Source of the DNA: an uncultured Staphylococcaceae bacterium
Lineage (GTDB): Bacteria > Bacillota_I > Bacilli_A > ML615J-28 > CAG-313
DNA: 64,000 nucleotides
Direction of reading: 5' to 3'
Assembly (NCBI GenBank): GCA_964541525.1
Contig: CAZIQF010000002.1
Coordinates: 1,775 to 65,774 of the forward strand
Made by a program: the position numbers and the translations under genes. Shown here piece after piece: positions 34,778 through 50,404 of the stretch; position 1 is the first letter of the stretch; each line of letters starts with the position of its first letter. Under the pieces are notes generated by a model. It did not search any database, was not told the DNA's origin, and saw only the letters and a program-made list of their open reading frames with translations.

Positions 34778-34840
34778 ATTAGGGAATTTTAATAAAATTA
34801 GGAATAATCTTTTTTCCAACATTCTTTTTTGATTTTTATA

Positions 34841-35713: not shown

Positions 35714-35782
35714 TACTACAAAATATTTCACAATACAGCTTTTAGTAGTAATATAAAAATAATTTTTTTGAATAAGGATTTT

Positions 35783-36286
35783 TTACGATTCTAATAATTG
35801 TTTCTTTTTTGCATCAAACTCTTCCTGAGTAATTATACCATCATCTAGTAGTTGCTTAAATTTTCTTAATTCATCAGCACTAGAAACCGACTGAAATTGG
35901 TTTATAATTGTCGACATATTTTTTTTATTTTCTTCAATAAGCGTATGTATATGATTATATACATTTTCTGCTAATTCATTTTGTTTTGGGAAAAATACAA
36001 TAGATCTTAAATCTTTAGCCGCACCCCTTATACCATTACTATTCTTAATTTCTCCTTTAACTCCCAAAGATAAATAACCATTTTTCCAAATAGATGCCTT
36101 TGAAAATTCTACGCTTTCAATATCAACCTTATCTATAACCTTCTCGTCAGTCAAAAACTTAAATATTATTTTATCTTCGTAAACAAATAAATTGTTCATA
36201 TTTCCTCGTAGTTCAAATAATAAGTTTCCCATAAAGTCTCCTTTCGCACCTAAAATTATACCACAATTTATAATATATTTCAACAA
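35783..36286 (-). CDS. SHOCT-domain protein with N-terminal PH-like domain
   Basis: C-terminal LLDDGIITQEEFDAKKKQLL matches the SHOCT motif. 167 aa. Confidence 0.5.
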   Translation of the reverse strand: MLKYIINCGIILGAKGDFMGNLLFELRGNMNNLFVYEDKIIFKFLTDEKVIDKVDIESVEFSKASIWKNGYLSLGVKGEIKNSNGIRGAAKDLRSIVFFPKQNELAENVYNHIHTLIEENKKNMSTIINQFQSVSSADELRKFKQLLDDGIITQEEFDAKKKQLLES

Positions 36287-36296
36287 TTATATCTTA

Positions 36297-36344
36297 TAGG
36301 TTCGATATCCGTAAGTAAATGGTTCGAGTCCGTGGACAGTCTCC
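36297..36344 (+). other. tRNA/tmRNA-like 3-prime fragment with an internal short duplication
   Basis: GGTTCGAtaTCCGT ... GGTTCGAgTCCGTGGACAGTCTCC resembles a T-arm plus acceptor 3-prime strand, but no complete cloverleaf can be drawn. Confidence 0.25.
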
Positions 36345-36472
36345 TTAGGTGTTAAAATCTAAATGTTTCATAAAAGCATAAAAAAATAAGGTATTCTAAC
36401 CATTATTGGCTAAAATACCATATAAAATGCAAAAAAATAAGCCTTACTAGAAGACTTATAGATTTCAAAAAA

Positions 36473-36546
36473 TGGAGGTCCCGATCGGATTTGAACCGAT
36501 GATCAGGGTGTTGCAGACCCACGCCTTACCGCTTGGCTACAGGACC
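36473..36546 (-). tRNA. tRNA-Cys (anticodon GCA)
   Basis: Minus strand reads GGTCCTGTAGCCAAGCGGTAAGGCG-TGGGT-CTGCAAC-ACCCT-GATCATCGGTTCAAATCCGATCGGGACCTCCA. The 7-bp acceptor stem, D-arm, anticodon loop CT-GCA-AC, T-loop GTTCAAATC and encoded CCA are all present. Confidence 0.8.
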
Positions 36547-40764: not shown

Positions 40765-41313
40765 TTAAAAATCATTTATTATTTCTAATATTTTTTTCAT
40801 TGTATTAGCAGTTCTGATTGTAATTTGATTGCAAATCGCTTTGTTTGCAGTTTTTATCCACCAATTTGATTTACGATAGTTATTGATATCATAAGACCAA
40901 AAAATAATATTATTATATTCAGCAATTTGATCAATATGTATTTTAGGTTCACCGACAATTTTAATCACTTCAGATGATGTTGTTGGCGAAATCGGAAAAA
41001 TAATATTATCGTAGATTTCTTTGTTACAAGTTCCCCACCAAACTGGATGATGATCAATGATATTTTCAAGTTCAGAAGCAGTTAGAACATAAATTGGTAG
41101 GTCTAAATGGAATTGTTCAGCAATTAACGAACGAATATTGGTTATAATTAGTGATTTATCAAAAGTATCACTTTCAAAAATAATATTTCCACTATTTAGA
41201 TGGGTTTTGATGTTTTCATAATTAAATCTTTTTAATGCATTTTTTAATTCATTCATAGCTATTTTATTTTTGCCACTAATATTAATTCCTCTTAATAATG
41301 CAATGTATTTCAT
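40765..41313 (-). CDS. DUF1697-family protein
   Basis: N-terminus MKYIALLRGINISGKNKI matches the conserved DUF1697 start. Confidence 0.6.
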   Translation of the reverse strand: MKYIALLRGINISGKNKIAMNELKNALKRFNYENIKTHLNSGNIIFESDTFDKSLIITNIRSLIAEQFHLDLPIYVLTASELENIIDHHPVWWGTCNKEIYDNIIFPISPTTSSEVIKIVGEPKIHIDQIAEYNNIIFWSYDINNYRKSNWWIKTANKAICNQITIRTANTMKKILEIINDF

Positions 41314-41440
41314 ATTTTCACCTTATAAATAAATTATTTGTTTAATTTTTATAAAATAAAAGGGCTTTAATCAACAAATACTTCAATATAACTTATTGTT
41401 TTCGTTTGATCAACATCTGTTACTCCATAATAGGAACCTT

Positions 41441-41730
41441 TGTACCAAAGAATAAAACTTTTATCGTTACTTTCTATCCGTTATAAAATTTGAAGATTAT
41501 TCTCTATTTATTTTTATCATAGTAAGCTTTATGAATAGTGATTAGCATGAGGCATCACTCTCGAATAGTTCTACTGGTTTTTATTTTCAATCAAAATCTA
41601 AAAACTGCATCACGTTTGAATCCTTGATTTGTGATGAAAAAACCTCAATCATGCTTGTTTTCCTTCATAATCAACAAAAAAGGCCTGAATGTGGCATCAA
41701 AACTATCGTTTCAATATGTATTGCACTAAT
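41441..41730 (-). repeat. Copy 1 of a duplicated roughly 150-300-bp segment carrying a gene 3-prime remnant plus a degenerate REP-like element
   Basis: Minus strand encodes ...KPVELFESDASC*SLFI... with stops. About 75% identical to 42180-42320. Confidence 0.45.
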
Positions 41731-41803
41731 ATTCTAATACAAAACTACCCCCTAGATAAATGAAGACACCCTTGATTTTGACTAGCACATTATAAATTGG
41801 AGT

Positions 41804-42109
41804 TTATTTCATTTTGTATTCATCTAAATTAACTTTATAATTGATAACAGTTATTCCGTCTTTTTCTAACTTTTCTTTTTGCTTTTCTATACCTCCAAAT
41901 GCAAATTTCTTTGATAAATTCCCTTTGCAATCGACTACTTTATAGCACGGATATTTTGTTTCATCTGGATTATTATGAAGAATATTGCCAACAACTCTTG
42001 CTAACTTTTTATTTCCCAAATATTCTGCAATTTGTCCGTAAGTTACCAATTTACATTTTGGAATTGTTTTCAAAAAATCATATACTTTTTCTTTCATCAT
42101 ATCCCTCAT
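41804..42109 (-). CDS. MGMT-family (6-O-methylguanine-DNA methyltransferase DNA-binding domain) protein
   Basis: 101 aa. PCYKVV motif (active-site PCHRV equivalent) and an HTH region. Confidence 0.65.
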   Translation of the reverse strand: MRDMMKEKVYDFLKTIPKCKLVTYGQIAEYLGNKKLARVVGNILHNNPDETKYPCYKVVDCKGNLSKKFAFGGIEKQKEKLEKDGITVINYKVNLDEYKMK

Positions 42110-42169
42110 AAATTCTAATTTTCTTTAGATAGATTATACCACGATATGCTTATAATAGCAAAAGAAGAA

Positions 42170-42640
42170 CCCTACTTTATTCAGCTTCTATCGTTACTTT
42201 ATATCCGTTATAAAATTTGAAGGTTATGCTCTTATCTTTATTTAATATAACGACTTCTACAAATAGCGACCAGCAGGTATCATCCCACTCAGATAATTCT
42301 ACTGGTTTTTCTTTTAACCCTTTAACTTGTATTTAAAGAACTTTGAATTTGGATATTCTATTATTTTTATTACTTGAAAATAATAATTAATTATAATTTA
42401 GAAAACGCATTTATTATCCGCCTCACGTTTGAAGTTGCAAAAGCCGAATCGTTTTCTAGTTCTAGTAATCGTTTTTTGTTATATGAGCAATTCCTGCTTA
42501 AAATAAATAACAAGAACCTTTGAAACCTTTAATTTCTATAAAAAAGTATCAAAAATTCTTATTTTTCTCTATAAATAGCAAAAAAGGACTGATATTTTTT
42601 GTATCAATCCTATTGTTTCAATATGTGTGGAAATACCTAT
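42170..42640 (-). repeat. Copy 2 of the duplicated segment, with an about 46-codon start-less C-terminal ORF remnant and a REP-like terminator
   Basis: Minus strand encodes KEKPVELSEWDDTCWSLFVEVVILNKDKSITFKFYNGYKVTIEAE* with no start codon. Ends in hairpin GGACTGATA-ttttttg-TATCAATCC and tail tattgtttcaatatgtgtgg. Confidence 0.45.
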
Positions 42641-42652
42641 TTTGATACAATT

Positions 42653-42700
42653 TGCGTACACCTATTAAAAAGTGCGTACAGTTGCGAAAAAATGCGTACA
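42653..42700. repeat. 3 x TGCGTACA direct repeats with exact 20-bp period
   Basis: tTGCGTACAcc, gTGCGTACAGtt and aTGCGTACAGtt begin at 42653, 42673 and 42693. They lie between the chrA stop and its terminator hairpin. Confidence 0.6.
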
Positions 42701-42732
42701 GTTAAACTCACCGATAAATTGAAATTTGTTTA

Positions 42733-43314
42733 TCAAAATCTTAATAATGAATACATCAGCATACCAAGACCTGCCGATATTAGTATCATCAGTATCGGAG
42801 TTGGTTTTTTCTTAAATGCAAGCTTTGCTACGATACTGATTAATATCAATATGGCGAATATGATAATGCCATTAAAATCTATGGCAAGTGTATCTCCTAT
42901 ACCACTGAATCCGATTGCCGTACTCATAAACATCGTGATTGCCGTTGCGAGTATCAAGCCAACAACACACGGACGGATACCGCTGAGAAACGCTTTTACT
43001 CCCGCATATTTCATAAAGTTGCGTATCAGGGCTGCAATTATGAGAATGATAATAAATGACGGCAATACCACACCCAGCGTAGCAAGGATCGCACCGAGAA
43101 AACCGCCTTGTGACGAGCCAACGAAGGTCGCCATATTAACCGCGATCGGTCCGGGAGTGGATTCAGCTACGGCAAGCATATTGAGCATTTCTTCCTCGGT
43201 AAGCCAACCGTACATCAAAACTTTTTCTCGTATCAGCGAAATCATTCCGTATCCGCCGCCAAAGGAGAATGCACCGATCTGAAGGAAGGTTAAGAACAAT
43301 TCAAGATAGATCAT
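42733..43314 (-). CDS. chrA: Chromate transporter ChrA, short-chain half (C-terminal partner)
   Basis: 193 aa with 5-6 TMs. FGGGYGMISL motif of CHR family. Overlaps the partner gene. Confidence 0.75.
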   Translation of the reverse strand: MIYLELFLTFLQIGAFSFGGGYGMISLIREKVLMYGWLTEEEMLNMLAVAESTPGPIAVNMATFVGSSQGGFLGAILATLGVVLPSFIIILIIAALIRNFMKYAGVKAFLSGIRPCVVGLILATAITMFMSTAIGFSGIGDTLAIDFNGIIIFAILILISIVAKLAFKKKPTPILMILISAGLGMLMYSLLRF

Positions 43315-43900
43315 GTTTTTTCTCCTTCCTGATCTTGCCGAGGAGATATACCACTACGCCGCAGATCCCACTAATCAGTATGTAAAATATTGTTGAAAAC
43401 TTCACCGCGAACAACGAAAACACGATCATACAGATAAGTGTTATCGAAATAATGATCATGTTAAATGTGGTTTTCTTCATCTGCTTCAGCATCTTCAGTC
43501 CTGCTGTAAGGATTAGATATACCACACATATCTGAATCCCTTTGAAAGCGTACGCAACCAATGTAAATGAAAGAAAGGCATCAAAAAACAGCGATATAGC
43601 ATAGATAATAACAAAAGACGGAATACAAATGCCAAGCGTAGCAATCATTGAGCCGATCATTCCAGAATTTTTGTATCCTATGTAAGTTGCTGCATTAATG
43701 GCAATAGGACCGGGCGTGGATTCGGCAATCGCCGCAACATTCAAAAATTCATCTTTTTCAAGCCATTTCTTTTTTTCTACGAACTCATTTTCAAGCAGAG
43801 CGATCATGGCATATCCACCGCCAAAGGTGAACAATCCTATTTTCAGCATTGTCAAAAAGAGTGAGAGGTAGCCTTTTACTTTCTTCATAAGAGTCTCCAT
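43301..43900 (-). CDS. chrA: Chromate transporter ChrA, short-chain half (N-terminal partner)
   Basis: 199 aa. FTFGGGYAMIALL and ESTPGPIAINAATYIGY motifs. Confidence 0.75.
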   Translation of the reverse strand: METLMKKVKGYLSLFLTMLKIGLFTFGGGYAMIALLENEFVEKKKWLEKDEFLNVAAIAESTPGPIAINAATYIGYKNSGMIGSMIATLGICIPSFVIIYAISLFFDAFLSFTLVAYAFKGIQICVVYLILTAGLKMLKQMKKTTFNMIIISITLICMIVFSLFAVKFSTIFYILISGICGVVVYLLGKIRKEKKHDLS

Positions 43901-43996
43901 TTATCTAACTTACAAATTCTAATTTATCGTTTAGTTTATTATAGCACAAAAAACACATTTTTTCATTATATTCACCTGCCATATAACGAAAAAACT

Positions 43997-44046
43997 TTTC
44001 GTTCCGTTAATAAGGCTTTCGTTCCGCAGTACTACCTTTCGTTCCG
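43997..44046. repeat. 3 x TTTCGTTCCG direct repeats with 20-bp period upstream of chrA pair
   Basis: cTTTTCGTTCCGttaa, gCTTTCGTTCCGcagt and cCTTTCGTTCCGtaga begin at 43997, 44017 and 44037. They lie 100-150 bp upstream of the chrA start (minus strand). Confidence 0.6.
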
Positions 44047-44152
44047 TAGATATAACATATAAAGAAAAAGAGCCCTTCAAAAGTGCTGTTTAACACTCTC
44101 ACAAGGCTCTGCTGTTTACTTACAAAAAGGAACTAACTCCCTTTATGCAAAG

Positions 44153-44183
44153 AAAAAAAGGTTCAATACTTTTGTATCAAACC
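44153..44183 (-). terminator. REP-like hairpin terminator downstream of NUDIX gene
   Basis: AAAAAAA-GGTTCAATAC-ttt-TGTATCAAACC. Confidence 0.55.
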
Positions 44184-44189
44184 TTTGCT

Positions 44190-44340
44190 TTTCTTATGGC
44201 AACGTTACACAAATTTAATACAATTGCATACCCCTGCACTAAATCTGCATACCCTTAGGTTATTTTTGCATACCCTAAGAGCAAAAATGCATACCCTAGA
44301 GGCGTTTTGCATACCCCTATTTCTAAACGATAAATAGGAA
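44190..44340. repeat. 3-prime module A (ATGGCAACGTTAC box plus 5 x TGCATACCC at 21-bp period)
   Basis: ttatGGCAACGTTACacaaatttaatacaaTTGCATACCCC, then TGCATACCC copies at 44246, 44267, 44288 and 44308. Confidence 0.6.
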
Positions 44341-44345
44341 TTTAT

Positions 44346-44819
44346 TTATCTTAATATTCCTAATTTAATTTTGTTATCTAATTCCCATAATGCGGTCTTA
44401 TTGCTATCGTATCTAAGTCTTTTTAATGCGGTTTCATAATCAACCCATTCATATTCTGTATGTTCATGAGACAATTTTAGAATTTTGTTATCTATCTTAA
44501 CAGCAAATGAGTATTCTGGAATCACCAAACAATCTTCACCCCATATTTGTCTTGCTTCTTTAAAGCAGTATGTTGGTATGCTACTTTGAGTATCAAGAGA
44601 AACATATTTACAGTCCTTATCTATATTTGCTTCTTCATATGCTTCTCGTTTTGCGGAAGTTAACACTGTCTCATCTTCATCTTCACCACCACCCGCAATA
44701 AATTGCCAAGCATCCATATCACTTCTTTTAAAAATACAATATTTTATATTTTTCTTTTCGACATAATATGGAATAACTAATACTTGATATTTTGCTCTTG
44801 CCATTTTGTTTCCTCCCAA
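44346..44819 (-). CDS. NUDIX hydrolase
   Basis: Nudix box GGGEDEDETVLTSAKREAYEEANI. 157 aa. Confidence 0.6.
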   Translation of the reverse strand: MGGNKMARAKYQVLVIPYYVEKKNIKYCIFKRSDMDAWQFIAGGGEDEDETVLTSAKREAYEEANIDKDCKYVSLDTQSSIPTYCFKEARQIWGEDCLVIPEYSFAVKIDNKILKLSHEHTEYEWVDYETALKRLRYDSNKTALWELDNKIKLGILR

Positions 44820-44827
44820 ACTCTAAT

Positions 44828-46153
44828 TTATTTATTAACCTTCCAATATCCTCGAGTACCACCAATTCTCTCAATAATTCCTTTTTTCTTTAATTCAGCT
44901 ATAATTCTTTGAACAGATCTTGAACTTTTATTTATCAATTTACTTATTGTTTCTGATGAATAATTAGGATTAGCTTTAATAATATTTATGACCATTTCTT
45001 CATCTACTGATAAATTGACATTTACGACACTATTTGCGACACTATTTATGACATTTCTCTTAAATATAAAGGTAAAACCTTCTCTACCAGTTACATAATT
45101 AATATTAATTTTATTTTTTTCACATTCACTATATACTCTTTTTAGACCACTGCTATAAGACTCTACATCTTCTGATAAGAATAAAGTCTTTAAAATTAAC
45201 GGATTTCTCACTTTAGAAGGAATATTTTCATATACAAAGTCTTCGGGTTTATATCCTATTGGAAATTCTCCAGGATTATAAATTCTAATCATACTCGGAT
45301 GAATAGTTATTTCATGTTCAGTATTTGAATTATATCTAGCATGAGCAAAACTATTACAAATGATTTCTCGCAAAGCTTTTAATGGAATTTCGGGAGTTTC
45401 AACTCTATCAAATCCAGCAATTTCTGCTTTCCATAAAATATTTCTTTTAATGTATGTGTATGCTTCGTCAATTAAATCAAATATGTTTCCACTTATCCTA
45501 TTTATATCTAAAAATGTCAGTTTCTCATCAGTAGCAAAAACAGCCATTTTTAAAACTATTGGCTCATTTTTTGAAAATAAATAATATCCAGCATTAGTTA
45601 ACTTACCATTTTTAAATAAACCAATTTTTGAAAGCAATCTTTTTGGTTCAAAATCATCATCTTTTATTCTCCCACATGATATTGATCTTTTATAAAACCT
45701 TTCTAAAGATTTAATGTCTATATCATCTATACTGTGGTTTGATAATTGAGAATCCCAACTTTCTTGTTTATTATATTCAAACAATTGTCTAAGTTCATGA
45801 GGCTCAAGAATTCTATCCTCATCAGCTATACGAATATAATACACTCCCTTTGCTGAATATGGTCTATCACTACCTTTAAAAGATACTTCAATTATTTCCT
45901 TATCATCTATTATTCTTTTTTCTATAGTGGGGACAATTTGAGGAACAATTGTTTCATAAATCTTTCTTGAAATATCTCTTAATGTTGATTCAGTAATCAT
46001 TTGCCCTTTTGGCTCTCCATTTGGTAAAACACCAAAATAAATAGTACCATACCCGTGTTTATTAAGCATTGCACAAATTGATTGTATAGCTTCATTAATT
46101 TCTCCAGTTGTTTTTTTGAATTCCAATGTCTCATCTTCAATACCAAAGTTCAT
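44828..46153 (-). CDS. Schlafen-like AlbA_2 domain / divergent ATPase / C-terminal wHTH protein (COG2865 family)
   Basis: N-terminus E.LEFK....GEINEAIQSICAMLNKHGYGTIYFGV.PNGEPKG (AlbA_2/Schlafen core). Central HATPase_c_4-like region. C-terminal HTH ISKLINKSSRSVQRIIAELKKKGIIERIGGTRGYWKV. Confidence 0.6.
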   Translation of the reverse strand: MNFGIEDETLEFKKTTGEINEAIQSICAMLNKHGYGTIYFGVLPNGEPKGQMITESTLRDISRKIYETIVPQIVPTIEKRIIDDKEIIEVSFKGSDRPYSAKGVYYIRIADEDRILEPHELRQLFEYNKQESWDSQLSNHSIDDIDIKSLERFYKRSISCGRIKDDDFEPKRLLSKIGLFKNGKLTNAGYYLFSKNEPIVLKMAVFATDEKLTFLDINRISGNIFDLIDEAYTYIKRNILWKAEIAGFDRVETPEIPLKALREIICNSFAHARYNSNTEHEITIHPSMIRIYNPGEFPIGYKPEDFVYENIPSKVRNPLILKTLFLSEDVESYSSGLKRVYSECEKNKININYVTGREGFTFIFKRNVINSVANSVVNVNLSVDEEMVINIIKANPNYSSETISKLINKSSRSVQRIIAELKKKGIIERIGGTRGYWKVNK

Positions 46154-46212
46154 AAACTGACCTCCTAATCTATAACTATTATATCAAAATTAATAATATA
46201 TGTCAAGGATTA

Positions 46213-46243
46213 TGTCGTAAATATAATGTCGTATATTGTCGTA
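46213..46243. repeat. 3 x TGTCGTA direct repeats upstream of the Schlafen-like gene
   Basis: aTGTCGTAaatataaTGTCGTAtatTGTCGTAtaaa, located 60-90 bp upstream of the start at 46153 (minus strand). Confidence 0.45.
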
Positions 46244-46470
46244 TAAAGGTTGAAATAATCACAAAAAATACCTAACGTTTTTTTATACCCCTATCTTTTT
46301 TTAGAAGCACCTTTCATTTTTTAATGGATCTTTCGTTTTTGAGAAAATTTATCTATAGAAAAAAATCCTAAGATTGAAGTTTTAATTTTGCCTAATAGCT
46401 CAGGATTTTGTGTTAATATGGTTCATTTAATTATCAATTACGGGACTTCAACCCCCCATATCAAGATATA

Positions 46471-46508
46471 AAAAAGCTTTGAAACAGCATTTCTACTGTA
46501 TCAAAGCA
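46471..46508 (-). terminator. REP-like hairpin terminator
   Basis: AAAAAA-GCTTTGAAACAGCAtttctaCTGTATCAAAGC. Confidence 0.5.
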
Positions 46509-46630
46509 CTTTCTTCTTTAATGGCAACGTTACTCAATTTTAATACAATTGCATACCCTTAGCCTTGTAATCGTTAAAAAGTTAAATATTTTGCATATCC
46601 TAAAGGCGTTTTGCATACCCTAATATTAAT
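46509..46630. repeat. 3-prime module B (ATGGCAACGTTAC box, TTGCATACCCTTAGCCTTGTAATCGTTAAA, 2 more TGCATA(C/T)CC)
   Basis: About 85% identical to module C at 48951-49053. Confidence 0.6.
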
Positions 46631-47245
46631 TTAAATTGAATTACCGAAAACTTCATTATTAACTTCAATATCATTTTTTATCACAGAAGCTAATAATTCC
46701 CAATTGTAACAATATTTACTATCTATTTGTTGTCCTTTTCTGATATATGTTTGATTATTAGAGAATTCTTTTGTTATTGTTATATACCAATCTTGACGTT
46801 GTACTAAATTCATAAAATTAATACAAATATTTTCATTATAAAAAGAATAGCAATTAAATGGGCCATAGAACCATAATTTACCATTTTCATCTTTCATGTC
46901 TCCAATTTCTACTTTATCAAACTTAAATCCATAATCTTTAACTAAAAAACTAAAATGTTCCATTATAGAATATGATTCATCACAAATTATTTTTTTAGTT
47001 ATATTTTCACCCCAAACATAAGTATCAAAACCATCAACCCAAAATGTTTTGTCTAATAACTTTGGCTTTACAAAACTAAAAAACTTTTTAACAAAAAAAC
47101 CGTTTTTTGTATCTATAAATCCATCTTTAAGTTCTAATTCTTTAATAGCTTTATTTGCATTTTCTAAAGAACTATAGATTCCAATATCCTTTTTTTCAAT
47201 GTGATCAATAAGTTTATATTTATGTGTAACTTTATAATAAAACAT
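46631..47245 (-). CDS. Hypothetical cytoplasmic protein (204 aa)
   Basis: No TM and no known motif. Immediately downstream of the 478-aa gene (16-bp gap), so probably co-transcribed. Confidence 0.35.
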   Translation of the reverse strand: MFYYKVTHKYKLIDHIEKKDIGIYSSLENANKAIKELELKDGFIDTKNGFFVKKFFSFVKPKLLDKTFWVDGFDTYVWGENITKKIICDESYSIMEHFSFLVKDYGFKFDKVEIGDMKDENGKLWFYGPFNCYSFYNENICINFMNLVQRQDWYITITKEFSNNQTYIRKGQQIDSKYCYNWELLASVIKNDIEVNNEVFGNSI

Positions 47246-47260
47246 ACATATTTTCTCCTT

Positions 47261-48697
47261 TTAATTTAATTTCTCCTTTATCAATTCATAGATTTTCTTA
47301 TCATTTTTTGATTTATGTAAAGTATATTTTTTATTATTTACATAGAAAGAAATTTTATCATCAAATGATAAATTAGAAATGCCTTCAAAATTAGTTTCTA
47401 TAGAACGATAGCCGTTAACATATAATATTCCTTTTTCTCTAATCTCAAAACAAGAATCGAATGAAGAATTTTTTGATAATAATTCTTTTATAATTACAAT
47501 CAATGTGATAAGTAAAGTGACTACTGGGATTCCTATACCAAATATTAAATAGAATGCCCATTTCATTTCAGGATTTAATAGTTGAATAATTAGACATAAA
47601 ATATTCCATCCAAGTGCTGCAATCATTATATATTTAATCATATTTAGTAAACAATAAATTCTACTATATTTCTGACTAAATACTAATTCTCCTAATCTTT
47701 CTTCAATCGGAACTCCAAAATAATCACACCAATGGAAATCATCAAAATATAAATTATGTAGTTCACATTTATTTTTAAACTCATTGACTTTATTAAGCAA
47801 TAAAGTTATTTTTTTATTTTCTTTATTAGATATATTATACGAGTAAAAACTTAAAACATAATTTTCTAATAAGATAAAGCATTTTATCATATCATTATCG
47901 TTATCAATATATCCAATAACATTTCTTTCTTTTAAATCTAAAAAATCATTATGAATATCTCTATAAGAAATAGAATAATCAATATTATTTAATTTTAAAT
48001 CTATCCCGTCATCATTAATACTGTAATCAAAATTTTTTAATACTGTTTGTTTTTCAAAAAGGAAATTTAATGACATTTTATTAACTTTTAAAATTCTTTC
48101 TTCATTATATTTAGGTGAATCAAAATTAAATTCTATATATTGTTCTTTTTCATCAATTCTCATGTCACAATGAAAAAAAGTATCACCAACACTTAATGTA
48201 TTTTCTATTATTCCACTACATTTTAAAATAACAAGTGATCCCCATGTTGTATCAACCAATATTTCAAGTATATTACCATTTTGTTTCATTGCTAAAATAT
48301 ATGCATCGTGAAATGAGCTTGTATTAAATTCTAAAACTTCTAAACTTTTAGTTGTTTTAATATCAATATATTTAGAATCGTTAAAATTATTCGCAATATT
48401 TATTGTTTCATTTAACATGTCTAAAGTATATTTTTTACTCTTTACAATTTTAAAAATGTTTCGTTTATTCCAATATGATTTAAAATTATTTTCTACTATT
48501 GCAAAGTTGCCATGACTATAATCTATTAATAAAAATTGATTACTTGAATTACTCTTATACAAATCAATAACTATTAGTTTAGAATAATCAGCATTTAAAA
48601 CTACAGCTTTACTGCTCCATCCAGACAATGAAAGAGCCATAACTGGAGAAATATATACTTCATTTTCTGTCATTATTTTAGCAAACATAATAATCAC
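47261..48697 (-). CDS. Hypothetical protein, N-terminal soluble domain plus C-terminal 2-TM / bacterial PH (DUF304-like) module
   Basis: 478 aa. C-terminus MIAALGWNILCLIIQLL ... AFYLIFGIGIPVVTLLITLIVII followed by a PH-like segment (ILYVNGYRSIETNFEGISNLSFDD). Confidence 0.35.
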   Translation of the reverse strand: MIIMFAKIMTENEVYISPVMALSLSGWSSKAVVLNADYSKLIVIDLYKSNSSNQFLLIDYSHGNFAIVENNFKSYWNKRNIFKIVKSKKYTLDMLNETINIANNFNDSKYIDIKTTKSLEVLEFNTSSFHDAYILAMKQNGNILEILVDTTWGSLVILKCSGIIENTLSVGDTFFHCDMRIDEKEQYIEFNFDSPKYNEERILKVNKMSLNFLFEKQTVLKNFDYSINDDGIDLKLNNIDYSISYRDIHNDFLDLKERNVIGYIDNDNDMIKCFILLENYVLSFYSYNISNKENKKITLLLNKVNEFKNKCELHNLYFDDFHWCDYFGVPIEERLGELVFSQKYSRIYCLLNMIKYIMIAALGWNILCLIIQLLNPEMKWAFYLIFGIGIPVVTLLITLIVIIKELLSKNSSFDSCFEIREKGILYVNGYRSIETNFEGISNLSFDDKISFYVNNKKYTLHKSKNDKKIYELIKEKLN

Positions 48698-48737
48698 AAC
48701 TCCTTTGTAATATTATACCATACATTGTTAATTATTC

Positions 48738-48835
48738 ATAATAATTAGTAATCGTTAAATTGTTTAGTAATCGTTAAAAGGTTAAATCTTGCATACCCTT
48801 TTAATGTAATCGTTAAAAGGTTGATACTTCGCACG
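48738..48835. repeat. 5-prime module D (3 x AACGATTAC/TAATCGTTAAA boxes plus one TTGCATACCC) upstream of the 478-aa gene
   Basis: ttagTAATCGTTAAAttgtttagTAATCGTTAAAaggttaaatcTTGCATACCCttttaatgTAATCGTTAAAaggttgatacttcgcacg. Confidence 0.6.
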
Positions 48836-48923
48836 TGTTCTCTTACGCCTAGAAAAAGAAAAAAGCCCACTGAAGGACTAATAATTGCTTAACGGTGAGA
48901 CTTGTACCCTAGCAAAATAAAGA

Positions 48924-48950
48924 AAAAAGCCGATACTTCATTGTATCGAC
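48924..48950 (-). terminator. REP-like hairpin terminator
   Basis: AAAAAA-GCCGATAC-ttcattg-TATCGAC. Confidence 0.4.
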
Positions 48951-49053
48951 TATCATTAACGATAATGGCAACGTTACGCAATTTTAATACAATTGCATAC
49001 CCTTAGCCTTGTAATCGTTAAATTGTTGCTTTTTGCATACCCTAAAATATCTA
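48951..49053. repeat. 3-prime module C (ATGGCAACGTTAC box plus TTGCATACCC x 2)
   Basis: taATGGCAACGTTACgcaattttaatacaaTTGCATACCCTTAGCCTTGTAATCGTTAAAttgttgctttTTGCATACCCTAAAA. Confidence 0.6.
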
Positions 49054-49503
49054 TTATTTTATCACTTTGGAATAGTTATCATAATATAAAATATTTGCTT
49101 TTAAATTTTCTATAATATATTCTTCTATCTCTTTAGAATAAGATATTAAATTATGTATATTTTTTCTTTTTATTATTATATTGTTAGCTTTAAATTTATT
49201 TTTTAAAGCTTTTTGTGAAGGAATTAAAATTTCATTAATTTCAGATAATTCAATAACTATATTATTGCTTTTATGATTTATTAGAATAATTTGATCTGAT
49301 TTAAATTCTATAAAAGAATTTTTTAAAGTATAAGAAATATAAAAATATAAAGGGATTATAAAAGCTGATACAGAACCAAATTGAATTGATAATACCTCAT
49401 TCGTAAAAAGGTAAATTACAAGAAAGATAATAAATAATACCAAAAAAAATATTGCCGCAATCTTAAATATTTTTTCATCTTTTGCATTTCTTCTAAACTT
49501 CAT
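49054..49503 (-). CDS. Membrane-anchored bacterial PH-domain protein (YdbS/DUF304-like)
   Basis: 149 aa. Two N-terminal TM helices followed by a PH-like domain. Confidence 0.4.
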   Translation of the reverse strand: MKFRRNAKDEKIFKIAAIFFLVLFIIFLVIYLFTNEVLSIQFGSVSAFIIPLYFYISYTLKNSFIEFKSDQIILINHKSNNIVIELSEINEILIPSQKALKNKFKANNIIIKRKNIHNLISYSKEIEEYIIENLKANILYYDNYSKVIK

Positions 49504-49536
49504 TTTTTTCTCCTTACTTTTTTATAAAATTCTAAT

Positions 49537-49872
49537 TTATTTGACACTAACTTCGATGCCAACTACACCATATTTTTTTATATTTTCATCACTATAATAA
49601 GTTAACATATCGATAGGATTTGCTATTTCATTTTCGCTATACCCAATTGAAATCTTATTATGATGTTTATATAGTTCGTAAAAATTCTCATATTTATATA
49701 AATTAATAACCACACATTTCAATATTTCACTAGTTTTTGTATTGACAAATTCAATAACATCACCAATTGAAATTAATGAACGCTTTTCATCACATAATCT
49801 CATTTCAATTGTTTTTGTTTTATTCTTAATTTTTAGAAAAGAATCATTCCAAAGATTCATTTTATGAGTCAT
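49537..49872 (-). CDS. ASCH-domain (PUA-like) protein
   Basis: 111 aa. N-terminal SFLKIKNKTKTIEMRLCDEKRSLISIGDVIEF follows the ASCH pattern (beta-barrel, conserved K/R and GD). Confidence 0.5.
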   Translation of the reverse strand: MTHKMNLWNDSFLKIKNKTKTIEMRLCDEKRSLISIGDVIEFVNTKTSEILKCVVINLYKYENFYELYKHHNKISIGYSENEIANPIDMLTYYSDENIKKYGVVGIEVSVK

Positions 49873-49974
49873 TTCATCATCACTTCCTACATTACAAATT
49901 CTAATTTATTGTTTATTTAATTTTACCACAAAACGACCAAAAAGTATATTTATATGGTTATTTAAATTGGAGAT

Positions 49975-50075
49975 TTCTAGTAATCGTTAAATTGTTAGGT
50001 AATCGTTAAAAGGTTCATAAATTTGCATACCCTAAACCTTATAATCGTTAAAAGGTTCAAGCTTCGCTCACGTTC
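49975..50075. repeat. 5-prime module E (same architecture as module D) upstream of ASCH gene
   Basis: tagTAATCGTTAAAttgttaggTAATCGTTAAAaggttcataaatTTGCATACCCTAAAccttaTAATCGTTAAAaggttcaagcttcgctcacg. Confidence 0.6.
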
Positions 50076-50142
50076 GCCTATTAATTAATGGTTGAAAAAG
50101 TATCCTTATAAAATAAAAAACGCCCACACAGGGCAAATAAAA

Positions 50143-50168
50143 GGCATAACGGCGGGACTTGAACCCAT
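50143..50168 (-). other. tRNA 3-prime-end-like fragment (T-arm GGGTTCAAGTCCC plus acceptor strand)
   Basis: Minus strand reads GGGTTCAAGTCCCGCCGTTATGCC. It is not part of a complete tRNA. Confidence 0.25.
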
Positions 50169-50175
50169 ATAATAA

Positions 50176-50206
50176 TAAAAAATCTCGATACTTTTATTGT
50201 ATCAAG
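50176..50206 (-). terminator. Terminator of tRNA-Lys (REP-like hairpin)
   Basis: Minus strand CTTGATAC-aataaaa-GTATCGAG-ATTTTTT directly after the tRNA. Confidence 0.55.
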
Positions 50207-50221
50207 ATTAATCATCTCAAA

Positions 50222-50297
50222 TGGTACACCCTTAGGGACTCGAACCCTAGACCCACTGATTAAGAGTCAGTTGCTCTACCAACTGAGCTAAGGGTGC
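50222..50297 (-). tRNA. tRNA-Lys (anticodon CTT)
   Basis: Minus strand reads GCACCCTTAGCTCAGTTGGTAGAGCA-ACTGA-CTCTTAA-TCAGT-GGGTCTAGGGTTCGAGTCCCTAAGGGTGTACCA with a canonical cloverleaf and encoded CCA. Confidence 0.85.
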
Positions 50298-50404
50298 ATA
50301 ATTTTAGCAATATTATTATATCAAAAAAGTCAGATAAAGTAAAGTGTTTTGATTTTTTAGTATGAAAAATTAATTATGATAGGTAGTTAAAGTTTAAGAA
50401 GAAG

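What the first reader, a model, noticed from the sequence alone, without database searches (positions are those of the whole stretch)
44150..50300. tRNA-Lys-proximal island of three two-gene cassettes, each bracketed by the same conserved 5-prime and 3-prime non-coding modules
Three consecutive minus-strand gene pairs have unrelated coding content: Schlafen-like ATPase plus NUDIX, a 478-aa plus 204-aa unknown pair, and ASCH plus a membrane PH protein.

The flanks are nonetheless homologous.
- The 5-prime flank of the two tRNA-proximal cassettes (the 478/204-aa pair and ASCH/PH; modules D and E at 48738-48835 and 49975-50075) has three TAATCGTTAAA boxes plus one TTGCATACCC.
- The 3-prime flank (modules A, B, C at 44190-44340, 46509-46630 and 48951-49053) has ATGGCAACGTTACNCAATTTTAATACAATTGCATACCCTTAG and further TGCATACCC copies.
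- Each 3-prime flank ends with a hairpin terminator.

The array sits directly beside tRNA-Lys, a classic integration hotspot, and I found no integrase. Conserved flanks around variable cargo suggest a cassette-exchange (integron- or shufflon-like) or hypervariable defence/accessory locus rather than ordinary operons.
Basis: seen in the sequence. Interest (0 to 1): 0.8.

Follow-up and report, generated by a model that had tools for sequence, protein, structure and literature searches.

The report
tRNA-anchored array of recombinase-site-bounded gene cassettes
The conserved flanks are real and look like the two halves of a phage-type serine-recombinase attachment site, so this island is probably a stack of small recombinase-less mobile gene cassettes inserted one after another exactly at the 3' end of a tRNA gene, a way of collecting accessory genes I found in no paper I searched.

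Summary
All 11 exact TGCATACCC copies in the 64-kb window lie in 44.2-50.0 kb (0.19 expected).

The flanks are not ordinary promoters or terminators. In about 49 distinct junctions from the window and about 40 public loci, an almost invariant 57-nt block, ...TTTAACGATTAC..GGGTATGCAATTGTATTAAAATTGNGTAACGTTGCCA, ends abruptly at CA. A new unit then begins with about 17 nt, TGATACAAT, a hairpin and a T-run.

The same left end directly follows the CCA of at least 10 different tRNA genes and the tmRNA gene. The 478/204-aa cassette is 95.7% identical in Acholeplasma oculi, where it sits at tRNA-Ser.

Right end plus left end form a 54-bp dyad, ATTGTATYAAAAT-N13-CA-N13-ATTTTRATACAAT. That intact site lies next to tandem large-serine-recombinase (LSR) genes in 6 of 10 viral contigs. 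One prophage with such genes abuts tRNA-Pro in one sample and tRNA-Met in another. A GenBank Anaeroplasmataceae phage has the same box-rich arms. The window's array holds two LSR pseudogene remnants.

Best reading: an array of at least 5-6 LSR-att-bounded cassettes (about 41.7-50.2 kb), similar in logic to SCC elements and integrons but a member of neither. A second array follows tRNA-Cys. The recombinase link is inferred, not shown.

The parts
50222..50297 (-). tRNA-Lys(CTT). Its 3'-terminal CCA (window 50222-50224) is the anchor, or attB left half, of the array.
   Evidence: ARAGORN and Rfam tRNA at 71.2 bits. The left end of cassette 1 starts at the next base.
48966..50221 (-). Cassette 1 (ASCH 49537-49872 plus 149-aa membrane protein 49054-49503). 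Read on the minus strand it contains, in order:
- the left end (P' half-site), with ATCTTGATACAAT at 50196-50208 inside a hairpin and T-run at 50177-50215;
- a GGGTTCAAGTCC box at 50152-50170;
- a second terminator at about 50112-50135;
- the 5' module E at 49975-50075;
- an extended -10 (TGGTAAAAT) at 49920-49928;
- the two genes;
- the right-end block at 48966-49053, ending in GTAACGTTGCCA.
   Evidence: The same left end follows a pseudo-CCA in L030. The ASCH gene occurs at >=90% identity at tmRNA and in other arrays.
46522..48965 (-). Cassette 2 (478-aa 47261-48697 plus 204-aa 46631-47245). Its features:
- left-end hairpin at 48925-48955;
- 5' module D at 48738-48835;
- extended -10 at 48712-48720;
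- right-end block at 46522-46630, with the core ATTGTATTAAAAT at 46537-46549.
   Evidence: It is 95.7% identical over 2455 nt to Acholeplasma oculi L012:2415-4843, where it lies next to tRNA-Ser(GGA). Homology stops at TGGC/GCCA on both sides.
44197..46521 (-). Cassette 3 (Schlafen-AlbA_2/HATPase_c_4/wHTH 44828-46153 plus NUDIX 44346-44819). Its features:
- left-end hairpin at 46465-46510;
- three TGTCGTA boxes at about 46205-46245;
- right-end block at 44197-44340 with five TGCATACCC at 21-bp spacing, core at 44212-44224.
   Evidence: A homologous Schlafen cassette with five TTTACGACA boxes follows tRNA-Ser(GCT) in L068.
42624..44196 (-). Cassette 4, outside the finding (split chromate transporter genes 43301-43900 and 42733-43314). 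Its features:
- left-end hairpin at 44150-44190;
- three CTTTCGTTCCG boxes at 43985-44050;
- a variant right end at 42624-42730, ATTGTATCAAAAT-AGGTATTTCCACA-CA, with three TGCGTACA boxes.
   Evidence: Its 5' region is 84% identical to L025:479-793, where it precedes a different gene. The same right-end family is present in L017, L021, L058 and L059.
41717..42623 (-). Cassette 5, outside the finding (MGMT-like 101-aa gene 41804-42109). Its features:
- left-end hairpin at 42570-42610;
- an LSR C-terminal pseudogene remnant at 42195-42350;
- a degenerate right end at about 41717-41745 (TTTGTATTAGAAT...CAATACA).
   Evidence: The remnant matches L059 LSR2 at 36.5% over 52 aa (tblastn E 3e-7) and the L036 LSR at 51.5% over 33 aa (E 4e-9).
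40765..41716 (-). Probable cassette 6, whose distal end is not defined. Its features:
- left-end-like hairpin at about 41650-41716;
- a second, more decayed LSR remnant at 41460-41552;
- the DUF1697-like 182-aa gene at 40765-41313.
   Evidence: E 0.011, with in-frame stops. No right end was recognisable further left.
33950..36546 (-). Second array, downstream of tRNA-Cys (36473-36546). It holds the SHOCT-domain gene, the HD-domain gene and the cupin gene. They are separated by left-end-type hairpins (TTGATACA at 35689, TTGACACA at 34755) and right-end-like ends (about 35715, about 34770, about 33965).
   Evidence: Left-end-type hairpins occur nowhere else in intergenic DNA of the window.

Best explanation
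**What it is.** The island is a tandem array of small gene cassettes of 0.9-2.4 kb that carry no recombinase.
- Each cassette is bounded by the two halves of a serine-recombinase attachment site.
- The array was built by repeated site-specific insertion exactly after the CCA of tRNA-Lys.

**Anatomy of one cassette, read in the tRNA's direction.**
1. The left end is the P' half: 13 nt, then (ATTTT)GATACAAT embedded in a hairpin with a T-run that also terminates the upstream tRNA or cassette transcript.
2. Next come a GGGTNCAAG box and a second terminator.
3. Then comes an arm with TTTAACGATTA and GGGTATGCA boxes.
4. Then come the cassette's own extended -10 promoter and 1-2 (elsewhere up to 4) cargo genes.
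5. The right end is the P half: more boxes, ATTGTATYAAAAT, 13 nt, then CA.

**The site.** Right end plus left end give a 54-bp dyad centred on an invariant CA dinucleotide. This is the architecture of a large-serine-recombinase (LSR) attP.

**Proposed enzyme and reaction (inferred).**
- The enzyme is a tandem pair or triplet of LSR genes carried by temperate gut phages (Ca. Heliusvirales) and by small elements.
- It would recombine attP with the 3' end of essentially any tRNA or tmRNA gene, crossing over at the CA of CCA.
- Only the tRNA side of the target is conserved, so tRNA-CCA|left-end remains a usable target. New units would therefore stack next to the tRNA and push older ones outward.
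- Cassettes keep both arms but have lost, or never had, the recombinase. They would be moved in trans.

**Shown.**
- The boundaries, the dyad and the many tRNA targets.
- The horizontal spread of cassettes.
- The LSR-attP adjacency in phages.
- The LSR remnants in this array.

**Inferred.**
- That the LSRs catalyse the reaction and that the crossover is at CA.
- That the boxes are accessory protein-binding sites.
- That cassettes move as circles, and the order of insertion.
For: 1. **Sharp boundary.** In 49 unique junctions, conservation runs from -57 to -1 and collapses at +1. CA is invariant. TGATAC sits at exactly +18 in 31 of 49 junctions.
2. **Same left end after different tRNAs.**
   - One left end directly follows the CCA of tRNA-Ser(GGA) in A. 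oculi, of tRNA-Leu(GAG) in L005, and a cassette right end in L019.
   - Another follows tRNA-His (L026) and tRNA-Leu(CAA) (L039).
   - The left end beside the window's tRNA-Lys follows a right end in L030.
   - Other anchors are tRNA-Ser(GCT), Leu(CAG), Arg(ACG) and tmRNA.
3. **No target duplication.** In L014 the distal right end is followed by the native tRNA-Arg trailer. The window's tRNA-Cys trailer follows distal right ends in L007, L020, L043 and L056.
4. **Mobility.**
   - Cassette 2 is 95.7% identical over 2455 nt in A. oculi.
   - Cargo protein clusters at 90% identity hold 8-45 members on many contigs, against 1-2 members for this genome's housekeeping proteins.
5. **Intact attP in phages.** Ten viral contigs carry GTATYAAAAT-N13-CA-N13-ATTTTRATAC. 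In 6 of them, homologues of the L059 LSR pair (51-57% identity) end 200-350 bp away. L080 has three tandem LSRs.
6. **One prophage at two tRNAs.** A prophage with identical LSR-B ends in ...ATTGTATCAAAATTGGTGTCCAGTTA|TGG. It abuts tRNA-Pro(CGG) in L076 and tRNA-Met(CAT) in L077 at the same coordinate. Its end equals the P' half of the attP in L086.
7. **A deposited phage with the same arms.** GenBank PV036447.1 (Anaeroplasmataceae phage) starts CACCA|left-end followed by three TAGAACGATTAC boxes. It ends with an LSR pair, three GGGGTGTCG boxes, then CTTGTATTAAAAT-N13-CA.
8. **LSR genes inside arrays.**
   - L059 has an intact SHOCT_2-LSR-LSR module ending in a right end.
   - L036 has a truncated LSR.
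   - The window has two LSR remnants.
Against: - No intact LSR is present in the 64-kb window, and the rest of this genome could not be inspected.
- No excised circle or empty tRNA-Lys site was observed.
- Canonical LSRs need two specific attB half-sites and no accessory sites. Here the trailer half of attB is not conserved, and the arms are full of repeated boxes whose role is unknown.
- Canonical LSR rules (attP x attB, attL x attR) do not readily explain excision of an internal cassette flanked by attP-like junctions.
- The orientation of LSR genes relative to P/P' differs between element types. In L074-L086 they sit next to P'. In L059, PV036447.1 and the window remnants they sit next to P.
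- Some cassette shuffling has breakpoints inside the modules or between genes (L009 against L016), so homologous recombination also contributes.
- The LSR family is very large, with thousands of members at about 58% identity. Its relatives at about 50% identity in Streptococcus phages include one named for integration at comEC, so the tRNA-CCA specificity of this subgroup is inferred from junctions only.
Confidence: 0.72

Rival explanations
1. Classical tRNA-targeting island. Elements were integrated by a tyrosine integrase that crosses over inside the tRNA (T-loop or anticodon loop). The palindrome CAATT-GTATTAA-AATTG in the right end would serve as the core site, and the TGCATACCC and TAATCGTTAAA boxes as arm-type sites. 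The cassettes would be decayed remnants, as with tycheposon-like or CIME-like accretion.
For: - The right end contains a 5-6-bp inverted repeat with a 7-nt spacer followed by an acceptor-plus-CCA-like tail.
- Repeated boxes on both sides recall arm-type sites.
- A prophage carrying a tyrosine integrase lies distal to a one-gene cassette at tRNA-Leu(CAG) in L034.
- L014 has a 24-nt duplicate of the tRNA-Arg 3' end.
Against: - No partial-tRNA direct repeats bound the cassettes.
- The homology break lies at CCA|, 13 nt beyond the palindrome. It is the same after tRNAs with unrelated acceptor stems, so an overlap region of 6-8 identical bp cannot exist.
- The palindrome is absent next to the tRNAs.
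- In about 60 loci the only tyrosine recombinases seen near arrays were the L034 prophage integrase and a Xer-like gene beside a restriction gene in L068. Neither is linked to the conserved ends.
- Relatives of the L034 integrase were not found in viral contigs.
Confidence: 0.07
2. No dedicated recombinase is involved. The conserved flanks act as portable homology arms, and cassettes are exchanged between arrays by RecA-dependent homologous recombination after DNA uptake. This resembles Neisseria minimal mobile elements or capsule-locus switching.
For: - The flanks are 57-130 nt long and 85-97% identical between genomes, enough for homologous recombination.
- L009 and L016 share a gene with breakpoints inside the 3' module and between genes.
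- The 478-aa gene is paired with different partners, and the ASCH gene with four different second genes.
Against: - Homologous recombination cannot place the same left end directly after the CCA of unrelated tRNAs and tmRNA.
- It does not explain the abrupt, base-precise end of conservation at CA.
- It does not explain the 54-bp dyad shared with phage attP sites next to LSR genes.
- It is best seen as a secondary process acting on the arrays.
Confidence: 0.1
3. The modules are primarily regulatory. They would be shared operator arrays (TGCATACCC and TAATCGTTAAA boxes), promoters and terminators of a regulon of accessory operons, conserved because one trans-acting regulator controls them. Location beside the tRNA would be incidental.
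For: - The 5' boxes lie 40-130 nt upstream of good extended -10 promoters.
- The left-end hairpins are bona fide terminator-like structures.
- The TTTACGACA boxes travel with the Schlafen-wHTH gene in two genomes, which suggests autoregulation.
Against: - The same box-rich arms flank phage attP sites.
- The boxes also occur downstream of genes.
- Nucleotide-level conservation across several bacterial families, together with horizontal transfer and base-precise insertion at CCA, is not expected of a regulon.
- A regulatory role of some boxes may coexist with the recombination role.
Confidence: 0.06
4. Single-strand (HUH) transposition of the IS200/IS605-PATE or IS91/Helitron kind. The element would insert 3' of a short target (CCA), has subterminal hairpins at both ends, makes no target duplication and has no terminal inverted repeats.
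For: - There are hairpins about 15 nt inside the left end and 13 nt inside the right end.
- Insertion is precise with no duplication, and the right end recreates the target (..CCA).
Against: - No Y1 or Y2 HUH transposase was seen in any locus.
- A 3-nt target could not give tRNA specificity.
- The two hairpins are unlike each other.
- The intact site occurs in dsDNA phage genomes beside LSR genes.
Confidence: 0.03

Closest known systems
Temperate phage integration by large serine recombinases (phiC31/Bxb1/A118 type). The nearest sequence relatives are the tandem LSRs of Ca. Heliusvirales gut phages (for example GenBank PV036447.1) and, at about 50% identity, Streptococcus phages such as phi1207.3 and the Javan prophages.
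   Same: - The attP-like site is about 54 bp, dyad-symmetric and centred on a single asymmetric dinucleotide.
- The LSR genes lie 200-350 bp from it.
- The hybrid junctions show no target duplication.
- Integration has a single orientation.
   Different: - The target is the CCA end of many different tRNA and tmRNA genes, not one specific gene.
- Only one attB half looks conserved.
- There are 2-3 paralogous LSRs plus SHOCT_2 and HTH genes.
- The arms carry repeated boxes.
- The sites also bound tiny cargo-only units stacked in arrays.
- None of this appears in the Heliusvirales papers or in the main text of the LSR atlas that I could search.
Staphylococcal cassette chromosome (SCC/SCCmec) elements and their composite islands at rlmH (orfX), moved by the CcrAB or CcrC serine recombinases.
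   Same: - Large-serine-recombinase genes, often a pair, are involved.
- Insertion is at the 3' end of a conserved housekeeping gene.
- Arrays are tandem and include recombinase-less pseudo-SCC units separated by repeated att sequences.
- Cargo consists of accessory and resistance genes.

The SCC properties listed here are from my own knowledge of the SCC literature. The best NCBIfam match of the L059 LSRs is CcrB.
   Different: - The scores are far below the Ccr family cut-offs (142 and 124 bits against 900), so these are not Ccr proteins.
- There are many tRNA targets instead of one protein gene.
- Units are 1-2.5 kb rather than 20-60 kb.
- The hosts are Acholeplasmatales, Erysipelotrichales and Clostridia.
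Integrons, including sedentary chromosomal integrons and CALINs.
   Same: - Arrays of small, same-orientation cassettes with very diverse cargo.
- The cargo is often GNAT, glyoxalase/bleomycin-resistance, NUDIX, toxin-antitoxin or unknown.
- Each cassette carries one recombination site at its 3' end, and insertion is at a fixed anchor.
   Different: - There is no IntI tyrosine recombinase, no attI and no attC (a folded bottom-strand site with R/L boxes).
- Cassettes carry their own promoter and terminators.
- The anchor is a tRNA 3' end.
- The recombination site looks like a serine-recombinase site.
Tycheposons and other tRNA-anchored island builders (Hackl et al., bioRxiv 10.1101/2020.12.28.424599).
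   Same: - Islands grow next to tRNA and tmRNA genes by successive integrations that push older material outward.
- Many different tRNAs are used.
- Degenerate remnants accumulate.
   Different: - Tycheposons are 10-20 kb, encode their own (mostly tyrosine) integrase, and are flanked by partial-tRNA repeats of about 40 nt.
- Here there is no tRNA fragment repeat.
- The units are 1-2.5 kb without a recombinase.
- One and the same element type uses many tRNAs.
Acinetobacter pdif modules and IMEX elements, which are cassettes bounded by sites for a recombinase encoded elsewhere.
   Same: These are gene modules without their own recombinase, delimited by short recombinase sites and exchanged between replicons. 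This description is from my own knowledge.
   Different: - Those use XerC/XerD tyrosine recombinases and dif-like 28-bp sites in inverted pairs.
- Here the sites are direct, serine-type and anchored at a tRNA.

Membership tests
Large-serine-recombinase (LSR) site-specific integration system | An LSR gene (Resolvase + Recombinase + Zn_ribbon_recom domains) is encoded by the element, close to its attachment site. | tested here: inconclusive
   - Met in related elements: the L059 pair, the L080 triplet, L081-L086, the L074-79 prophage and PV036447.1.
- Not met by the window's cassettes. Only two C-terminal pseudogene remnants are present, at 42195-42350 and 41460-41552.
Large-serine-recombinase (LSR) site-specific integration system | attP is about 40-55 bp with imperfect dyad symmetry around a central crossover dinucleotide. 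| tested here: met
   The site motif13-N13-CA-N13-motif13 (54 bp) is found three ways:
- reconstructed from 49 junctions;
- intact in 10 viral contigs;
- at each inter-cassette junction of the window.
Large-serine-recombinase (LSR) site-specific integration system | Integrated form is bounded by hybrid attL/attR with no target-site duplication, the break of homology falling at the central dinucleotide. | tested here: met
   - Junctions read tRNA-CCA|left-end and right-end-CA|native trailer (L014).
- The same prophage end lies at tRNA-Pro and at tRNA-Met.
- The prophage end equals the P' half of the free attP.
Large-serine-recombinase (LSR) site-specific integration system | Catalysis by the serine recombinase, with a 2-nt staggered cut at the core and directionality controlled by an RDF. 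| not testable with these tools
   This needs in vitro or in vivo recombination assays.
Integron | An intI tyrosine integrase with an adjacent attI and Pc promoter. | tested here: not met
   - No tyrosine recombinase was seen in the window's ORF translations (only some proteins were scanned with Pfam).
- None lies next to the anchor in any locus.
Integron | Promoterless cassettes, each ending in an attC site (imperfect palindrome with R''-L''/L'-R' boxes and a GTTRRRY crossover). | tested here: not met
   - Each cassette has its own extended -10 promoter and terminators.
- The right end has only a 5-bp stem and no GTTRRRY core.
- The crossover is at CA.
Shufflon | An Rci recombinase acts on inverted sfx repeats and inverts segments within a gene's 3' end. 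| tested here: not met
   All boxes and ends are in direct orientation on one strand. There is no Rci and no segmented gene.
Tyrosine-integrase tRNA islands, including tycheposons | The element is flanked by a direct repeat of the tRNA 3' part (att core within the tRNA) and carries a tyrosine integrase. | tested here: not met
   - Only CCA is shared between the tRNA and the cassette ends.
- The same left end follows unrelated acceptor stems.
- No integrase lies within the cassettes.
SCC (Ccr-mediated) elements | CcrA/CcrB or CcrC recombinases and insertion at the rlmH 3' end with ISS repeats. | tested here: not met
   NCBIfam CcrB scores are 142 and 124 bits against a cut-off of 900. The targets are tRNA and tmRNA genes.
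Known anti-phage defence system (defence island reading) | A complete set of proteins matching a described defence system. | tested here: not met
   PADLOC gives only partial-domain hits for the Schlafen/wHTH protein (best 6e-9 to part of an Aga SIR2 fusion) and nothing for four of the six proteins.
Curated RNA family (riboswitch, sRNA, tRNA-like element) | A match to an Rfam covariance model. | tested here: not met
   Only the two tRNAs reach the gathering threshold. The permissive scan of 41-50.4 kb gives nothing on the modules.

The most novel reading that the evidence does not exclude
A family of tandem large serine recombinases, carried by widespread gut phages (Ca. Heliusvirales) and by small elements, recognises the generic 3' end of tRNA and tmRNA genes rather than one specific gene.

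It would drive a previously undescribed, integron-like gene-capture system in low-GC Gram-positive bacteria and wall-less relatives (Acholeplasmatales, Erysipelotrichales, Clostridia). Promoter-bearing mini-cassettes that keep only the two att arms would be inserted, stacked and exchanged at the CCA of many tRNAs in trans.
Probability: 0.5. Interest if true: 0.85.

Novelty: new variant of a known kind. Interest (0 to 1): 0.74.

Why it matters
If the model holds, three things follow.

1. **A general route for accessory genes.** It would identify how accessory genes (GNAT, glyoxalase/bleomycin-type, NUDIX, Fic, arsenic resistance, restriction-modification and Abi components) accumulate and move in gut and rumen Bacillota and Mollicutes-like bacteria. 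By my own knowledge, these are lineages in which integrons are essentially absent.
2. **An unusual target rule for a serine integrase.** The rule would be 'insert after the CCA of any tRNA'. That bears on how LSRs read DNA. It also bears on genome engineering, because such a target is conserved, multi-copy and safe-harbour-like.
3. **Practical consequences.** It explains why assemblies break at these loci. It also gives annotators a simple signature, ATTGTATYAAAAT-N13-CA followed by N17-TGATACAAT, with which to delimit the units.

Tried and rejected
- **Rfam.** Gathering threshold on the whole window and E-value mode on 41-50.4 kb. No family matches the modules.
- **DNA search of the C/D inter-cassette region** against the phage and plasmid collections. 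No match at blastn sensitivity. The link to phages appeared only through the short dyad pattern and the proteins.
- **Short ORF in modules A-C.** MATL(H/L/R)(K/N)FNTIAYP has no Shine-Dalgarno sequence, and its variable base is a second codon position. I judged it coincidental.
- **T-arm-like GGGTTCAAGTCCCGCC as a displaced tRNA fragment.**
  - Its acceptor part fits no tRNA here.
  - Similar GGGTGCA-type boxes flank phage attP.
  - I treat it as one of the arm boxes. This remains unresolved.
- **Tyrosine-recombinase core at CAATT-GTATTAA-AATTG.** Rejected because the homology break is 13 nt further on and the palindrome is absent at the tRNAs.
- **Xer/dif-like reading of GCCA|TTATAGTTAAT.** Only some left ends resemble a XerD arm. 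Rejected.
- **IS200/IS605 or Helitron-like reading.** No HUH transposase was found.
- **L034 tyrosine-integrase prophage.** It probably sits independently at the same tRNA. No relatives turned up in viral contigs.
- **Strain-level variation at this exact locus.** Only contigs 100% or 99.96% identical to the window were found, and all are broken inside the island. No empty or alternative tRNA-Lys site was seen.
- **Literature searches.** I searched the box sequence, Acholeplasma plus cassettes or integrons, cassette arrays at tRNAs, and LSRs at tRNA genes. No description of this system was found.

Full report
**1.

Between the split chromate-transporter genes and tRNA-Lys(CTT) (50222-50297, minus strand) lie three minus-strand gene pairs. 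Pfam gives:
- SLFN_AlbA_2 + HATPase_c_4 + wHTH for the 441-aa protein;
- NUDIX for the 157-aa protein;
- borderline ASCH for the 111-aa protein;
- nothing for the 478-, 204- and 149-aa proteins.

The box counts are far beyond chance.
- TGCATACCC occurs 11 times in the 64-kb window, always on the + strand and only in 44225-50032 (0.19 expected).
- TAATCGTTAAA occurs 9 times exactly, 8 of them in 46568-50052.

The 5' modules (D, E) and 3' modules (B, C) are also homologous to each other, sharing a core TGCATACCC-N8/9-TAATCGTTAAA. No Rfam family matches any of this.

**2. The modules are a widespread, nearly invariant element with a base-precise end**

- A scan of one genome per species with TGCATACCC-N7-11-TAATCGTTAAA gave 27 loci. 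A scan of metagenomes gave 24.
- About two thirds of these are AT-rich loci carrying several boxes in the same architecture.
- They are labelled Acholeplasma oculi, Anaeroplasmataceae, Erysipelotrichaceae, 'Bacilli', Clostridiales and others. Some are short contigs binned elsewhere.
- Read in the sense of the genes, about 45 instances share TTTAACGATTACAAGGCTTAGGGTATGCAATTGTATTAAAATTG(T/C/A)GTAACGTTGCCA. After ...GCCA the sequences become unrelated.
- A position profile of 49 non-identical junctions shows high information from -57 to -1 and an invariant CA at -2/-1, with a collapse at +1. TGATAC then reappears at exactly +18 in 31 of 49 junctions, and a T-run at +39 to +46.

I call the conserved block the right end (RE). 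I call the following 'trailer + TGATACAAT hairpin + T-run' the left end (LE) of the next unit.

**3. The left end starts immediately after the CCA of tRNA genes**

- In all loci that include the anchor except L027, the boxes have the same orientation relative to a tRNA whose 3' end faces the array.
- The identical left end TTATAGT(T/A)AATGATTCTCGATACAATAAAAGTATCGAGATTTTTTT...GGGTACAAGTCTC follows three different things:
  - the CCA of tRNA-Ser(GGA) in A. oculi;
  - the CCA of tRNA-Leu(GAG) in a Bacillota MAG;
  - a cassette right end in L019.
- Another left end follows tRNA-His in L026 and tRNA-Leu(CAA) in L039. These have different acceptor stems and identical sequence from the base after CCA.
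- The left end beside the window's tRNA-Lys follows a right end in L030.
- Further anchors are tRNA-Lys(CTT), Ser(GCT), Leu(CAG), Arg(ACG) and the tmRNA gene downstream of smpB.
- In L014 the last right end is followed by a copy of the native tRNA-Arg trailer, so the array sits exactly between CCA and trailer with no duplication.
- The trailer of the window's own tRNA-Cys (TTTTTTGAAATCTATAAGTCTTC...) is what follows distal right ends in L007, L020, L043 and L056. Homology continues into the window's 36255-36475.

A unit therefore runs from the base after a CCA (tRNA or preceding right end) to its own ...CA.

**4. The units move and recombine**

- Window 46521-48969 is 95.7% identical over 2455 nt to A. 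oculi L012:2415-4843, where it lies next to tRNA-Ser and a PTS enzyme I gene. This span is the whole 478/204-aa unit including left end, 5' module, promoter and right end. Homology ends at TGGC on both sides.
- Other shared units also end at the right-end boundary (L024/L030, L040/L056).
- Cargo proteins of the window belong to 90%-identity clusters with 8-45 members on many contigs. Its housekeeping proteins have 1-2 members.
- The ASCH gene recurs in four settings:
  - after tmRNA, paired with a Trypsin_2 gene;
  - after an AAA_14 cassette, paired with a 303-aa gene;
  - after a Schlafen gene;
  - next to an IS110.
- Some exchanges have breakpoints inside the modules or between genes (L009/L016), so homologous recombination acts on top of the site-specific process.
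- Cargo elsewhere is typical accessory material. It includes GNAT acetyltransferases, glyoxalase/bleomycin-type proteins, NUDIX, Fic, XRE regulators, HsdS, beta-lactamase fold, GDSL lipase, ArsR/ArsC, AbiEii and TetR.

**5. The ends form a serine-recombinase-type attachment site**

- The right end is ATTGTATYAAAAT (-28 to -16), then 13 nt, then CA.
- The left end is 13 nt, then (ATTTT)GATACAAT (+14 to +26), the reverse complement of the right-end motif.
- A right-end|left-end junction is thus a 54-bp dyad whose axis passes through the invariant CA.
- A second right-end family (chrA cassette, L017, L021, L058, L059) has different boxes and spacer but the same motif, the same 28-nt length and the same terminal CA.

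This is the layout of a large-serine-recombinase attP: outer inverted motifs, a central asymmetric dinucleotide that fixes orientation, and a homology break at that dinucleotide. That description of LSR sites comes from established knowledge of LSR sites.

**6. The site is tied to tandem LSR genes in phages**

1. **L059/L060.** A module HTH, SHOCT_2, LSR (438 aa), LSR (526 aa) is followed by five CTCGGAACG boxes. Then comes ATTGTATTAAAAT-TAGCGTTCTTTGC-CA|TTTAAGATGATTAATCTTGATACAAT, and then an array of cassettes including ASCH.
2. **A prophage homologue.**
   - A 59%-identical LSR-B lies in a SHOCT_2-LSR-LSR module at the end of a prophage, with tail, holin and amidase genes upstream.
   - The prophage ends ...CATTGTATCAAAATTGGTGTCCAGTTA|TGG.
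   - It abuts the 3' end of tRNA-Pro(CGG) in one sample and tRNA-Met(CAT) in another at the same coordinate.
   - It also abuts a third tRNA-like 3' end that is partly masked in the stored sequence, and in L075 a right-end-like end of another element.
3. **Viral contigs.**
   - Ten viral contigs carry the intact dyad GTATYAAAAT-N13-CA-N13-ATTTTRATAC.
   - In six, homologues of both L059 LSRs (51-57% identity) end 200-350 bp from it.
   - One contig has three tandem LSRs.
   - The P' half of the attP in L086 (TAACTGGACACCAATTTTGATACAAT) is exactly the prophage end found at tRNA-Pro and tRNA-Met.
4. **GenBank PV036447.1** (Anaeroplasmataceae phage NatCom_34063, Ca. Heliusvirales).
   - It begins CACCA|TTAGAGTACATTAGTCTTGATAC..., with TGATAC at +18. 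Three TAGAACGATTAC boxes and CCGACACCCC follow.
   - It ends with an LSR pair, three GGGGTGTCG boxes, and CTTGTATTAAAAT-AGTTGTGTAAATA-CA.
   - This is the same modular architecture as the window's 5' and 3' modules, with sequence-variant boxes.
5. **The window itself.** It contains two LSR C-terminal pseudogene remnants in the leftward part of the array. One is at 42195-42350 (E 3e-7 to L059 LSR2, 4e-9 to the truncated LSR of L036). A more decayed one is at 41460-41552.

**7. Anatomy in the window**

Junctions lie at 50222 (the tRNA), 48966, 46522, 44197, 42624 and about 41717. This defines five cassettes and a probable sixth, and the distal limit near 40.7 kb is not defined.

Each unit carries:
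- its left-end hairpin, which is also an intrinsic-terminator-like structure for what lies upstream;
- a second terminator;
- a box arm;
- an extended -10 promoter;
- its genes and its right end.

Left-end-type hairpins occur only here and downstream of tRNA-Cys, where a second array with more diverged ends runs from 36.5 to about 33.95 kb. I saw no intact recombinase in the ORF translations of the window, and tblastn with the two LSRs found only the remnants.

**8. Mechanism proposed, and its weak points**

- **Shown:** the boundaries, the dyad, the many tRNA targets, the horizontal spread, the LSR-attP adjacency and the LSR remnants.
- **Inferred:**
  - The LSRs recombine attP with the tRNA 3' end at the CA of CCA.
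  - Because only the tRNA half of the target is conserved, tRNA-CCA|left-end stays targetable, so units stack with the newest next to the tRNA.
  - Cassettes are mobilised in trans.
  - The boxes are accessory binding sites, perhaps for one LSR paralogue or for the HTH or SHOCT_2 proteins.
- **Weak points:**
  - No intact LSR was seen in this genome fragment.
  - No circles or empty tRNA-Lys site were observed.
  - Canonical LSR rules do not easily excise internal cassettes.
  - Box-rich arms are atypical for LSRs.
  - LSR genes lie next to P' in some elements and next to P in others.

**9. Comparison and novelty**

- It works like LSR phage integration and, at the array level, like SCC composite islands and integrons.
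- It is not a Ccr system: NCBIfam scores are 142 and 124 bits against a cut-off of 900.
- It is not an integron (no IntI or attC, and each cassette has its own promoter).
- It is not a shufflon.
- It is not a tyrosine-integrase tRNA island such as a tycheposon, because no partial-tRNA repeats are present.
- The Heliusvirales papers available to me never mention integrase, recombinase, tRNA or attachment sites.
- The main text of the LSR atlas does not mention tRNA.
- Several targeted searches found no description of such cassette arrays.

These searches cover only open-access literature, so prior description cannot be excluded. I rate it a new variant of a known kind: site-specific-recombinase cassette arrays. 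Two features look new. One is a generic tRNA-CCA target for a serine recombinase. The other is mini-cassettes that consist of little more than the two att arms plus cargo.

Noticed in passing
window 43914-43927, 44815-44828, 49528-49541, 49897-49910, 42112-42125 (minus-strand sense ATAAATTAGAATTT); also L013 and L059:5728-5745: A conserved motif, (G)ATAAATTAGAA(T/A)TT, sits 15-30 nt upstream of the ribosome-binding site of many cassette genes. It also occurs between the two genes of a pair. It may be a 5'-UTR or translational or processing signal that travels with the cassettes.
   Followed up: no
window 33950-36546: A second, more diverged cassette array lies downstream of tRNA-Cys and holds SHOCT-domain, HD-domain and cupin genes. 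It has left-end-type hairpins at 35689 and 34755 and right-end-like ends near 35715, 34770 and 33965. Both tRNAs in the window anchor arrays.
   Followed up: partly
window 42195-42350 and 41460-41552 (minus strand): Two pseudogene remnants of the C-terminus of a large serine recombinase (..KDKSITFKFYNG..) lie between a left end and the cargo gene of cassettes 5 and 6. The surrounding approximately 150-nt segments are repeats of each other.
   Followed up: yes
window 46205-46245; L068:9880-9950: There are three TGTCGTA boxes upstream of the Schlafen/wHTH gene here (TACGACA in gene sense) and five TTTACGACA boxes upstream of its homologue in L068. These boxes travel with the gene and may be its own operator.
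   Followed up: partly
window 43985-44050; L059:5330-5455; L025:479-793: The box CGGAACGAAA (CTTTCGTTCCG on the + strand) occurs three times upstream of the chrA pair. It occurs five times in the right end behind the intact LSR pair of L059. Box types are therefore interchangeable modules between arms and elements.
   Followed up: partly
L014:4770-5120: A complete tRNA-Arg(ACG) with its native trailer is followed about 190 nt later by a 24-nt duplicate of the tRNA 3' end, after which the cassette array starts. This looks like the scar of a separate, classical integrase-type event at the same tRNA.
   Followed up: no
L001, L002, L031-L033 (contigs 99.96-100% identical to the window, taken as same-strain): Independent assemblies of the same strain all break inside the island, at window 50265, 50158, 44644 and 44194. 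L032 ends within 3 nt of a right-end junction. The repeats fragment short-read assemblies, and short pieces are mis-binned to unrelated taxa (for example hits labelled 'Alphaproteobacteria' and 'Gastranaerophilaceae').
   Followed up: partly
L042:3018-5534; L065:1589-2824; L080:6228-7478: Insertion sequences have landed in or beside cassettes or attP. An IS3-family element lies beside an ArsR/ArsC cassette, an IS110 lies next to ASCH, and a DDE_Tnp_1 gene lies beside a phage attP.
   Followed up: no
L075, L078 (downstream of the prophage LSR pair): In some samples the same prophage end is followed by defence genes instead of a tRNA. L075 has Hachiman HamA with a helicase and a type I restriction enzyme, reached across a right-end-like junction of another element. 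L078 has methyltransferases, RE_AlwI and TIR/ThsB. Larger defence-carrying units may use the same sites.
   Followed up: no
window 44197-44255, 46522-46563, 48966-49007 (+ strand): Each right end, read on the + strand, opens a tiny ORF (MATLLNFNTIAYP* and variants) with no ribosome-binding site. The TGCATACCCTTAGC box also resembles the 5' end of tRNA-Lys in the opposite orientation (repeat finder I12/I13). Both are probably coincidental.
   Followed up: partly
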